From Escherichia coli (GTDB lineage: Bacteria > Pseudomonadota > Gammaproteobacteria > Enterobacterales > Enterobacteriaceae), in the NCBI RefSeq assembly GCF_003334305.1, contig NZ_QOWS01000009.1: a stretch of DNA of 64,000 nucleotides; one strand, given 5' to 3'. Both the position numbers and the translations under genes were made by a program. The notes beneath the pieces were generated by a model. The model made no database searches. It was not told the origin of the DNA and saw nothing but the letters and a program-made list of their open reading frames with translations. Shown here piece after piece: positions 36,949 to 36,990 of this stretch. Position 1 is the first letter of the stretch; each line of letters opens with the position of its first letter.

Positions 36949-36990
36949 CTGTCATAAAAATGTCATATTCCTTACATATAACTGTCACCT
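36949..36990 (+). promoter_or_regulatory. pstS promoter Pho boxes (PhoB-binding CTGTCAT direct repeats)
   Basis: CTGTCATAAAAATGTCATATTCCTTACATATAACTGTCAC read directly about 65 bp upstream of pstS. Confidence 0.85.

What the first reader, a model, noticed from the sequence alone, without database searches (positions are those of the whole stretch)
36949..36990. Pho boxes retained immediately downstream of the fimbrial insertion
CTGTCAT-type PhoB sites are intact about 65 bp upstream of pstS, so the island ends upstream of the pst promoter without disturbing Pho regulon control. The weak hairpin at 36815-36842 is the only barrier between fimbrial-operon read-through and pstS.
Basis: partly seen in the sequence, partly recalled or inferred. 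Interest (0 to 1): 0.3.

Follow-up and report, generated by a model that had tools for sequence, protein, structure and literature searches.

The report
pstS promoter flush against lpf island
This is the well-known phosphate-starvation (PhoB) promoter of the E. coli pstS gene, and it starts exactly where a common fimbrial gene cluster (lpfO113) ends; the only mildly new point is that the tail of that cluster carries its own conserved, inverted PhoB-type site.

Summary
Two 18-bp Pho boxes lie at 36949-36966 and 36971-36988, 10 bp upstream of the -10 (TATTTT, 36999-37004) and 66 bp upstream of the pstS ATG (37055). They are orthologous to the K-12 pstS promoter.

The upstream cluster is the known lpfABCD-O113 operon, present in about 36% of complete E. 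coli genomes. It is a replacement rather than a simple insertion: 5420 bp (31525-36944) stand where K-12 has 202 bp of ancestral glmS-pstS spacer.

The right junction falls at 36945-36949, at the first base of Pho box 1, so there is no spare sequence. One SNP tied to the island (36960, C to A) lies inside box 1 and costs about 1 bit.

The hairpin at 36815-36842 is real and conserved, with compensatory changes. It has no U-tract, so "only barrier" is not established.

- The 137-bp right arm holds a strong inverted Pho-box-like site (36877-36894, minus strand, 18.5 bits). It is the best-conserved block across seven arm haplotypes.
- An IHF-consensus site follows at 36921-36933.
- The island removed an upstream block that is conserved across genera.

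Overall this is an ordinary, already known promoter. The inverted site is an untested lead.

The parts
29694..31523 (+). glmS; its stop codon is the left anchor of the replaced segment. K-12 identity ends at 31524.
   Evidence: ORF list; blastn against K-12 is 100% over 31403-31524; RefSeq annotation of the identical strain A7.
31525..36944 (+). Island-specific DNA, 5420 bp, standing where K-12 has 202 bp. GC is 43.4% against about 53% in the flanks. It has no terminal repeats and no integrase.
31536..31571 (+). Strong intrinsic terminator supplied by the island for glmS. It replaces the K-12 glmS terminator.
   Evidence: Fold -24.5 kcal/mol, z = -5.5, followed by a U-tract; inverted repeat I1.
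31825..32397 (+). lpfA-O113, fimbrial major subunit.
   Evidence: RefSeq annotation of the 100% identical locus; NCBIfam NF011817, 392.7 bits against a cut-off of 203.
32445..33176 (+). lpfB-O113, periplasmic chaperone.
   Evidence: NF011818, 534 bits against a cut-off of 317
33201..35723 (+). lpfC-O113, outer-membrane usher.
   Evidence: RefSeq annotation. The best NCBIfam usher models are below their equivalog cut-offs, but the protein is clearly of the usher family.
35734..36807 (+). lpfD-O113, minor subunit / tip adhesin; last gene of the island.
36814..36843 (+). Conserved stem-loop 7 nt after the lpfD stop. It is probably the 3'-end structure of the lpf mRNA and is not a canonical intrinsic terminator, because it has no U-tract.
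   Evidence: -13.2 kcal/mol, z = -4.2. Of 12 consensus pairs, 3 show compensatory changes, and the one-sided changes are G-U, which fits RNA of the + strand. Not called by the terminator scan.
36877..36894 (-). Inverted Pho-box-like site, TGTCATCTTTTTGTCATG, in island-specific DNA. Its centre is 73 bp upstream of the centre of box 1.
   Evidence: 18.5 bits, rank 2 in the window and above 52 of 59 ChIP-seq sites. It is one of only 2 TGTCA-N6-TGTCA matches in 64 kb. Chance expectation in the arm is 1.5e-4. It is the most conserved 18-column block across 7 arm haplotypes, with 15/18 invariant columns. It is absent from the K-12 and O157 arms.
36921..36933 (+). IHF-consensus match, AATCAGTAAGTTA (WATCARNNNNTTR), lying between the inverted site and box 1.
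   Evidence: The match itself is not rare: 6 in the window against 5.1 expected. However, the consensus positions are invariant and the N4 positions vary in all 7 haplotypes.
36945..36949 (.). Right junction between island-specific DNA and universally shared DNA.
   Evidence: blastn against K-12 resumes at 36945. Identity across all architectures starts at 36950. The same start of conservation is seen in other genera.
36949..36966 (+). Pho box 1, carrying the island-linked SNP at 36960 (A here, C in K-12).
36971..36988 (+). Pho box 2.
36999..37004 (+). -10 hexamer TATTTT of the PhoB-dependent pstS promoter, 10 bp after box 2.
   Evidence: Sequence; invariant in every strain and genus aligned. 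The assignment as the -10 rests on established knowledge of the K-12 pstS promoter.
37055..38095 (+). pstS, first gene of pstSCAB-phoU.
   Evidence: NCBIfam NF008171, 746.6 bits against a cut-off of 339; RefSeq annotation.

Best explanation
Positions 36949-37004 are the canonical PhoB-activated pstS promoter. Four 11-bp PhoB half-site repeats, arranged as two Pho boxes, take the place of a -35 element 10 bp upstream of the -10. Phosphorylated PhoB binds them and recruits sigma-70 RNA polymerase when phosphate is scarce.

Upstream lies the known lpfABCD-O113 chaperone-usher fimbrial operon. It occupies the glmS-pstS spacer as an allelic replacement: 5420 bp stand in place of the ancestral 202 bp. 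Its left edge is the glmS stop codon and its right edge is the first base of Pho box 1.

The junction sits there because Pho box 1 is where selective constraint on the pstS promoter begins, in E. coli and in other genera. Everything upstream of it is exchangeable. Core Pho control of pstS is therefore preserved.

Shown here: the anatomy, the orthology, the boundary, the population linkage of the SNP, and the conservation of the hairpin. Inferred: that regulation is unchanged.
For: - Motif, rank and spacing of the boxes.
- Orthology: 36950-37075 matches the K-12 promoter except at 36960, with a few further box-1/inter-box variants in other strains.
- In Citrobacter, Raoultella, Kosakonia and Salmonella, conservation likewise begins at the TGTCAT of box 1.
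- The locus is 100% identical to RefSeq strain A7, annotated lpfA-D-O113 then pstS. 1971 of 5426 complete genomes carry it.
- The literature places lpf between glmS and pstS in SE11, E24377A, SMS-3-5 and O157 (PMC2608844; PMC6033998).
- The island has low GC (43%) and no terminal repeats. Its right arm has no significant similarity to the K-12 spacer.
- The K-12 spacer is homologous to the spacer of other genera, so the state without lpf is ancestral.
- In K-12, pstS is the strongest PhoB ChIP-seq peak and falls about 900-fold in a phoB deletion (PMC10294691).
- In EDL933, which has the same right boundary, pstS stays Pi- and PhoB-regulated (PMC3978041).
Against: - There are no expression or binding data for an lpfO113 strain.
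- The island-linked SNP 36960 lies inside box 1, although it is outside the TGTCA core and costs only about 1.1 bits.
- The island removed an upstream block conserved across genera, which contains (C/T)GTCA half-sites. Quantitative Pho control could therefore differ from K-12.
- Read-through from lpf is not excluded, because the hairpin has no U-tract.
Confidence: 0.9

Rival explanations
1. The right arm of the island is not passive spacer but an extension of the pstS regulatory region. Under this reading the conserved inverted PhoB site (36877-36894) and the IHF-type bend site (36921-33) form an upstream auxiliary module. An IHF U-turn would bring the inverted PhoB dimer alongside boxes 1 and 2, replacing the ancestral upstream half-site block that the island deleted. 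This is compatible with the best explanation; it adds to it rather than replacing it.
For: - The site scores 18.5 bits, above 52 of 59 ChIP-verified sites and above box 2.
- Expected number of sites this strong by chance in the arm: 1.5e-4.
- It is the best-conserved 18-column block in seven diverged arm haplotypes: 94% pairwise identity against 66% for the rest of the arm, and 0.3% of permutations give any window as conserved.
- Its score is 15.0-19.5 bits in every haplotype, including the E. whittamii type.
- Its spacing to box 1 is kept at 73 +/- 1 bp.
- The IHF consensus positions are invariant while the N4 positions vary.
- The ancestral spacer also carries conserved TGTCA-type half-sites at about -250 to -165.
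Against: - There are no binding or expression data.
- Most PhoB sites not tied to a promoter were transcriptionally inert in K-12 (PMC10294691).
- The O157 lpf2 arm and the Salmonella island lack such a site, and pstS in EDL933 is still strongly PhoB-induced.
- The IHF match alone is no rarer than chance.
- Only seven haplotypes were compared and they are related, so the conservation statistics are not independent.
- The looping geometry is my own inference.
Confidence: 0.3
2. The inverted site is the Pho box of a PhoB-activated promoter on the minus strand, producing a transcript antisense to the 3' end of lpfD. This would couple phosphate starvation to lpf down-regulation.
For: The site is strong and conserved, and it points towards lpfD.
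Against: - There is no -10 element at the canonical 10-bp gap. The hexamer at that position on the minus strand is AAAGTG.
- The nearest A-rich hexamers lie 7-8 bp from the box, lack the T at position 6 in this window, and differ between haplotypes (read).
- No small ORF is conserved there.
- Rfam finds nothing.
Confidence: 0.07
3. The island does change pst expression. Transcripts from the lpf operon would read through the weak hairpin into pstS, giving Pho-independent pst expression; alternatively, the box 1 SNP and the loss of the ancestral upstream block would weaken induction.
For: - The hairpin has no U-tract and was not called by the terminator scan. By contrast, the Salmonella island at the same place ends in a canonical terminator 4 nt before box 1.
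- The SNP lies within box 1.
- The ancestral conserved block is lost.
Against: - The hairpin is conserved with compensatory changes, so it does something at the RNA 3' end.
- About 210 nt of untranslated, C-rich and G-poor RNA follow it, which favours Rho-dependent termination.
- The left arm, which should contain the lpf promoter, is 24% GC, typical of H-NS-silenced DNA (the silencing is inferred).
- The SNP costs only 1.1 bits and is carried by 26% of complete genomes.
- The main text of a STEC RNA-seq paper reporting about 10-fold differences in lpf expression does not report pst genes as differentially expressed, and pstS does not appear in the supplements held for it. This is weak negative evidence.
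Confidence: 0.1

Closest known systems
E. coli K-12 pstS promoter (two tandem Pho boxes; Makino et al. 1988, PMID 3054125, and Kimura et al. 1989, PMID 2651888, both cited from memory; PhoB ChIP-seq in PMC10294691)
   Same: The sequence matches K-12 from T36950 through the 5' UTR and into pstS, apart from the one SNP at 36960. The box spacing, the 10-bp gap to the -10 and the TATTTT -10 are the same.
   Different: There is a C-to-A change at 36960 in the second half-site of box 1. All of the K-12 upstream spacer (202 bp), including its glmS terminator and a block conserved across genera, is replaced by island DNA.
lpfO113 / 'lpfB1' long polar fimbrial operon at the glmS-pstS locus (NCBI names LpfA-D-O113; PMC2608844, PMC6033998), and the lpf2 operon of O157:H7 (O-island 154)
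   Same: It has the same four genes, the same locus and the same orientation, and is 100% identical to RefSeq strain A7. The lpf2 island of O157 ends at the same right boundary.
   Different: Nothing differs from lpfO113 itself. Compared with lpf2, the proteins are 34-63% identical (PMC2608844), there are 4 genes rather than 5-6, and the lpf2 arm lacks the inverted Pho-box-like site.
Salmonella enterica glmS-pstS island (SgrR-like regulator, shikimate-dehydrogenase-like protein, PTS EIIBC)
   Same: It is an unrelated insertion in the same spacer, in the same orientation, and its right end also lies directly against Pho box 1.
   Different: It ends in a canonical intrinsic terminator (12-pair stem plus T-tract) 4 nt before box 1. 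It has no inverted Pho box.
Distal OmpR site F4 plus IHF at the ompF promoter (a response regulator of the same family, with IHF-assisted looping); recalled from memory, not checked here
   Same: The resemblance concerns only the speculative reading: an upstream auxiliary site for an OmpR/PhoB-family regulator, separated from the core sites by an IHF site.
   Different: At ompF the distance is about 260 bp and the effect is repression. Nothing is known here about binding, looping or the sign of any effect.

Membership tests
PhoB-dependent promoter (Pho box type) | An 18-bp box made of two 7-bp CTGTCAT-like direct repeats with a 4-bp A/T spacer, i.e. TGTCA cores 11 bp apart. | tested here: met
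   Box 1 has 1 mismatch and box 2 has 2 mismatches. TGTCA-N6-TGTCA is present at 36950. PWM scores are 22.2 and 15.6 bits, ranks 1 and 5.
PhoB-dependent promoter (Pho box type) | The box replaces the -35 element and lies 10 bp upstream of a -10 hexamer. | tested here: met
   Box 2 ends at 36988 and TATTTT lies at 36999-37004. The sigma-70 scan found no -35/-10 pair here.
PhoB-dependent promoter (Pho box type) | Orthology to the experimentally defined K-12 pstS promoter. | tested here: met
   36945-37181 is 98.7% identical to K-12. The promoter columns are nearly invariant in 7 architectures.
PhoB-dependent promoter (Pho box type) | PhoB~P binding and induction under phosphate limitation. | not testable with these tools
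   Shown for K-12 (PMC10294691) and for EDL933, which has the same junction (PMC3978041). Not shown for an lpfO113 strain.
lpfO113 chaperone-usher fimbrial operon | Major subunit, chaperone, usher and minor subunit/adhesin in that order, between glmS and pstS. | tested here: met
   PMC2608844
Mobile genomic island (site-specific insertion) | Flanking direct repeats, an integrase or transposase, or a tRNA/attachment site. | tested here: not met
   There are no terminal direct or inverted repeats. The only ORFs are the four lpf genes. Both edges coincide with ends of constraint, the glmS stop codon and Pho box 1.
Rho-independent (intrinsic) terminator, for the hairpin 36815-36842 | A stable G+C-rich stem-loop. 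| tested here: inconclusive
   The stem has 9-12 pairs at -13.2 kcal/mol, but only 4 G-C pairs in the 9-bp core, with a 10-nt loop or an extended imperfect stem. It is conserved with covariation.
Rho-independent (intrinsic) terminator, for the hairpin 36815-36842 | A U-tract immediately 3' of the stem. | tested here: not met
   The tail is AUCUCACCCAUUUCUUUAUC, and the scan did not call it. The tails of the other haplotypes also lack an adjacent U-run.
Auxiliary PhoB site (inverted site 36877-36894) | Sequence match of ChIP-verified strength, beyond chance. | tested here: met
   18.5 bits, above 52 of 59 ChIP-seq sites. Expected number by chance in the arm is 1.5e-4.
Auxiliary PhoB site (inverted site 36877-36894) | Evolutionary conservation above that of the surrounding DNA. 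| tested here: met
   15/18 invariant columns against 39% in the arm; it is the top window, with P = 0.003 for any window by permutation. Only 7 related haplotypes were available.
Auxiliary PhoB site (inverted site 36877-36894) | PhoB occupancy in vivo and an effect on transcription. | not testable with these tools
   No data exist. Many such sites are inert in K-12 (PMC10294691).
IHF binding site (36921-36933) | WATCARNNNNTTR core, beyond chance. | tested here: inconclusive
   The match is perfect, but there are 6 matches in the window against 5.1 expected. The pattern of invariant consensus positions and variable N4 positions in 7 haplotypes is suggestive.

The most novel reading that the evidence does not exclude
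The lpfO113 island did not simply stop short of the pstS promoter. In this reading its 137-bp right arm has become part of pstS control. A conserved inverted PhoB site and an IHF-type bend site would functionally replace the ancestral upstream half-site block, conserved across genera, that the island deleted. About a third of E. coli would then run pstS, the master sensor/transporter operon of the Pho regulon, from a differently built upstream region than K-12.
Probability: 0.25. Interest if true: 0.4.

Novelty: already known. Interest (0 to 1): 0.2.

Why it matters
As found, it matters little. It confirms that a textbook promoter is present and that a well-known fimbrial locus abuts it.

Two modest points are useful:
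- The glmS-pstS spacer is a recurrent landing and replacement site, seen here with lpfO113, lpf2, Tn7 and a Salmonella PTS island. In every case Pho box 1 marks the exact right-hand limit of exchangeable DNA. This locates the functional upstream edge of the pstS core promoter by natural experiment.
- K-12 is not representative for the region upstream of box 1. Roughly 36% of complete E. coli genomes carry an lpfO113-type arm with a strong, conserved, inverted PhoB-type site, and lack the ancestral upstream block. If that site is active, Pho-regulon induction thresholds or kinetics could differ between phylogroups. That would bear on studies linking Pst/Pho to virulence in STEC and APEC.

Tried and rejected
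- **Residual homology between the right arm and the K-12 spacer.** Local alignment was no better than shuffles (219 of 500 scored as well). The shared 'ATTTAAA(A)TCAG' is chance.
- **Mobile-element signatures.** There are no terminal repeats.
- **Known RNA families in the arms.** Rfam gives only sub-threshold hits on terminators.
- **Small ORFs in the arm.** Several of 21-39 aa exist in the window, but none keeps its frame in the other haplotypes.
- **A minus-strand PhoB promoter at the inverted site.** There is no -10 at the canonical gap.
- **A plus-strand sigma-70 promoter in the arm.** None was called. The ATGACA hexamers are 23 bp from the only good -10-like hexamer (TAAAAT, 36918-23), which is too far.
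- **Other-species lpfD loci from genome contigs.** This gave one truncated E. whittamii locus with no downstream DNA. I recovered the region through the look-up of encoding contigs instead.
- **Supplementary tables.** The Gao & Stock supplements (PhoB sites) are not held. The supplements of the STEC lpf transcriptome paper have no pstS or lpf entries.
- **Literature search for a PhoB-lpf link or an IHF-pstS site.** Nothing relevant turned up in the held library. The IHF effect on pstS that I recall (Spira & Yagil 1999) could not be checked.

Full report
**What the window holds**

The ORF layout around the finding is glmU (28162-29532), glmS (29694-31523), four same-strand ORFs (31825-36807), and then pstS (37055-38095) followed by pstC, pstA, pstB and phoU. 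A megablast of 31400-37200 against 5426 complete E. coli genomes matches 5425 of them. It is 100% identical over its full length to strain A7, where RefSeq annotates lpfA-O113, lpfB-O113, lpfC-O113 and lpfD-O113 between glmS and pstS. 1971 genomes (36%) carry at least 80% of the query. NCBIfam confirms a fimbrial major subunit, a chaperone, an usher and an adhesin-like subunit, and confirms PstS. The presence of an lpf operon between glmS and pstS in SE11, E24377A, SMS-3-5 and O157 Sakai is already published (PMC2608844; PMC6033998). The 'fimbrial insertion' is therefore the known lpfO113 locus.

**Checking the observation**

- The strict Pho-box consensus CTGTCATAWAWCTGTCAY finds CTGTCATAAAAATGTCAT at 36949-36966 (1 mismatch) and CTTACATATAACTGTCAC at 36971-36988 (2 mismatches). 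It also finds one 3-mismatch hit inside lpfC. The chance expectation is 0.24 hits.
- I built a weight matrix from the 59 PhoB ChIP-seq site sequences in Table 1 of Fitzgerald et al. 2023 (PMC10294691). With it, box 1 is the best site in the whole window (22.2 bits) and box 2 ranks fifth (15.6 bits).
- Box 2 ends 10 bp before TATTTT (36999-37004) and 66 bp before the ATG. This is the canonical geometry of PhoB-dependent promoters.
- The observation and its coordinates are correct.

**Where the island ends**

- blastn of the K-12 glmS-pstS interval (NC_000913) against the window gives two blocks. One is 100% identical up to 31524, one base past the glmS stop. The other is 98.7% identical from 36945 onward.
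- Between the blocks, K-12 has 202 bp and the window has 5420 bp. The two segments share no significant similarity. This is a replacement, not a pure insertion.
- I aligned seven architectures: this window, an 89%-identical lpfO113 variant, two O157-type lpf2 loci, K-12, a second strain without lpf, and a strain with Tn7 in the spacer. Universal identity begins at T36950, the TGTCAT of box 1. The first box position (36949) is C, T or G in different architectures.
The margin, however, is zero bases.

**Why the boundary is there**

- PstS homologues from other genera gave loci from Citrobacter, Raoultella, Kosakonia and Salmonella. In all of them conservation with E. coli also begins at the TGTCAT of box 1 and runs through the -10.
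- The 202-bp spacer of K-12 is homologous to the spacers of Citrobacter, Raoultella and Kosakonia, so the state without lpf is ancestral.
- Salmonella carries an unrelated island at the same place (an SgrR-like regulator, a shikimate-dehydrogenase-like gene and a PTS EIIBC). Its canonical terminator ends 4 nt before box 1.
- The lpf island has no terminal repeats and no recombinase. It has 43% GC against 53% in the flanks, with a 24% GC left arm.
- My reading is that the spacer is exchangeable DNA bounded by two constrained elements, the glmS stop codon and Pho box 1. Different cassettes have been swapped in by recombination in the conserved flanks. The swapping mechanism is inferred; the boundaries are shown.

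**'Intact' needs a footnote**

- Position 36960 is A here and C in K-12, which turns the second half-site of box 1 from CTGTCAT into ATGTCAT.
- I used 30-mers in which every 28-base megablast seed word covers the SNP, so only genomes carrying that allele are hit. The A haplotype is in 1438 of 5426 genomes and the K-12 haplotype is in 1602.
- The island junction together with A is in 1422 genomes. The junction together with C is in 1. All other lpfO113-type arms have C.
- The SNP is thus a marker of this particular island haplotype, so the co-inherited block reaches into box 1.
- The SNP lies outside the TGTCA tract that contacts the recognition helix (Gao & Stock 2015, PMC4447250). It costs 1.1 bits and still leaves box 1 above 58 of 59 ChIP-verified sites. 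I expect little effect; this is inference.

**What was lost**

The ancestral spacer is not featureless. Across K-12, Citrobacter, Raoultella and Kosakonia there is a well-conserved block at about -250 to -165 from the ATG. In K-12 it reads ATGTGACAAACCGTCATCTTCGGCTACT...CTGTCACAGAATGAAAATTTTTCTGTCAT. It carries several (C/T)GTCA motifs. The roughly 60 bp directly upstream of box 1 are poorly conserved. The window lacks this block entirely. Its function is unknown to me, and Rfam finds nothing there. 'Without disturbing Pho regulon control' is therefore supported for the core promoter only. The best available experimental support comes from EDL933, whose lpf2 island ends at the same point. There pstS is induced 47-fold by low Pi and is 15.7-fold PhoB-dependent (PMC3978041).

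**The hairpin**

- 36814-36843 folds at -13.2 kcal/mol (z = -4.2).
- Across six arm haplotypes RNAalifold keeps 12 pairs. Three of them show compensatory double changes, and the one-sided changes are G-U, which is only neutral in RNA of the + strand. It is a real, selected RNA structure at the 3' end of the lpf transcript.
- It has no adjacent U-tract in any haplotype, and the terminator scan did not call it.
- By contrast, the island supplies a textbook terminator for glmS at 31536-31571 (-24.5 kcal/mol).
- 'Weak terminator' is fair; 'only barrier' is not established. About 210 nt of untranslated, C-rich and G-poor RNA follow (C/G 1.8), which is the kind of substrate Rho acts on. The AT-rich left arm also suggests a silenced lpf promoter. 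Both points are inferences.

- TGTCA-N6-TGTCA occurs only twice in the 64-kb window on both strands, against 0.13 expected. One is box 1. The other is at 36879-36894 on the minus strand, inside island-specific DNA.
- As an 18-mer (TGTCATCTTTTTGTCATG, 36877-36894) it scores 18.5 bits. That is rank 2 in the window, above box 2 and above 52 of 59 ChIP-verified sites.
- About 1.5e-4 sites this strong are expected by chance in the 137-bp arm, even with its AT-rich composition.
- It is absent from the K-12, O157 lpf2 and other-genus spacers.
- I collected seven distinct lpfO113-type arm haplotypes, including strongly diverged ones and the E. whittamii type. The site is the single most conserved 18-column block in the arm. 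It has 15 of 18 invariant columns against 39% overall. Pairwise identity is 94% against 66% for the rest of the arm. Only 0.3% of permutations give any window as conserved.
- Its score stays at 15.0-19.5 bits in all haplotypes, and its distance to box 1 stays at 73 +/- 1 bp.
- Between it and box 1 lies AATCAGTAAGTTA (36921-36933), a perfect WATCARNNNNTTR IHF core. Such matches are no rarer than chance in the window. In all seven haplotypes, though, the consensus positions are invariant and the four N positions vary.

**What the inverted site might do**

- A minus-strand PhoB promoter is unlikely. The hexamer at the canonical 10-bp gap is AAAGTG, and nearby A-rich hexamers are mis-spaced and not conserved.
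- A roadblock role is unlikely by analogy, since PhoB did not block elongation at three intragenic sites in K-12 (PMC10294691).
- The most economical functional idea is an auxiliary upstream PhoB site, possibly brought alongside the core boxes by an IHF bend, compensating for the lost ancestral block.
- Fitzgerald et al. showed that most PhoB sites without a promoter are inert. The lpf2 and Salmonella arrangements also do without such a site.
- I put about 0.7 on the site binding PhoB~P in vitro and about 0.25-0.3 on a measurable regulatory role.

**Verdict**

The finding is correct and ordinary: it is the textbook pstS promoter next to a well-known fimbrial locus. Four refinements apply:
- The junction falls at the first base of box 1.
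- The event is a replacement that removed a conserved ancestral upstream block.
- An island-linked SNP lies inside box 1.
- The hairpin is a conserved RNA structure but not a canonical terminator.

The conserved inverted Pho-box-like site in the island's right arm is the only element I could not find described. It is an in-silico lead, not a result.

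Noticed in passing
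window 36877-36894 (minus strand): A strong inverted Pho-box-like site, TGTCATCTTTTTGTCATG (18.5 bits, second best in the window), in island-specific DNA. Its centre is 73 bp upstream of the centre of Pho box 1. It is the best-conserved block in seven lpfO113-type arm haplotypes and is absent from the K-12, O157 lpf2 and other-genus spacers.
   Followed up: yes
window 36921-36933: A perfect IHF core consensus (AATCAGTAAGTTA) between the inverted site and box 1. The consensus positions are invariant and the N4 positions vary in all seven haplotypes, but the match alone is no rarer than chance (6 found against 5.1 expected).
   Followed up: partly
window 36960: A C-to-A SNP inside Pho box 1 that is almost perfectly linked to this island haplotype: 1422 genomes have the junction plus A, and 1 genome has the junction plus C. 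Other lpfO113-type arms keep C.
   Followed up: yes
L001 (K-12) about 1690-1775 minus strand; L018, L022, L023 upstream of pstS: The ancestral glmS-pstS spacer contains a block conserved across genera at about -250 to -165 from the pstS ATG. It carries several (C/T)GTCA half-sites and a -35/-10-like pair (GTGACA, 16 nt, TACTTT). The block is deleted in all strains carrying lpf. Its function is unknown to me.
   Followed up: partly
window 31536-31571: The island brings its own strong, bidirectional-looking terminator for glmS (-24.5 kcal/mol), replacing the K-12 terminator. By analogy with the Tn7-bearing strain 200112 (L005), the Tn7 insertion point about 20-25 bp after the glmS stop would fall inside it, near 31544-31549.
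   Followed up: partly
window 31525-31824: The left arm, which should contain the lpf promoter, is 24% GC and has AT-only palindromes at 31653-31694. It looks like a typical H-NS target; I did not examine it further.
   Followed up: no
L024 3851-3899 (Salmonella enterica): Salmonella has a different island between glmS and pstS (an SgrR-like regulator, a shikimate-dehydrogenase-like gene and a PTS EIIBC). Its canonical terminator ends 4 nt before Pho box 1, so it shares the same right-hand limit as the lpf islands.
   Followed up: partly
window 54715-54732 (minus strand): A PhoB-matrix hit of 16.2 bits (TGTAAAAAAGTTGTAATA), 89-106 bp upstream of, and in the same orientation as, a 253-aa ORF (53865-54626) downstream of yidZ. 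It is not among the K-12 ChIP-seq sites.
   Followed up: no
window 6151-6181: The rbsK PhoB ChIP-seq site of K-12 (TGTCACCATCAGGTCATA) is present at 6164-6181. A second, overlapping hit lies on the opposite strand at 6151-6168 (15.3 bits).
   Followed up: no
L003 and L006 (O157-type lpf2 loci); H3 (strain 0H23): The lpfB chaperone of the lpf2 operon is split or frameshifted in both O157-type loci examined. One lpfO113 locus is interrupted by an IS903B element. This suggests frequent decay of these operons.
   Followed up: no
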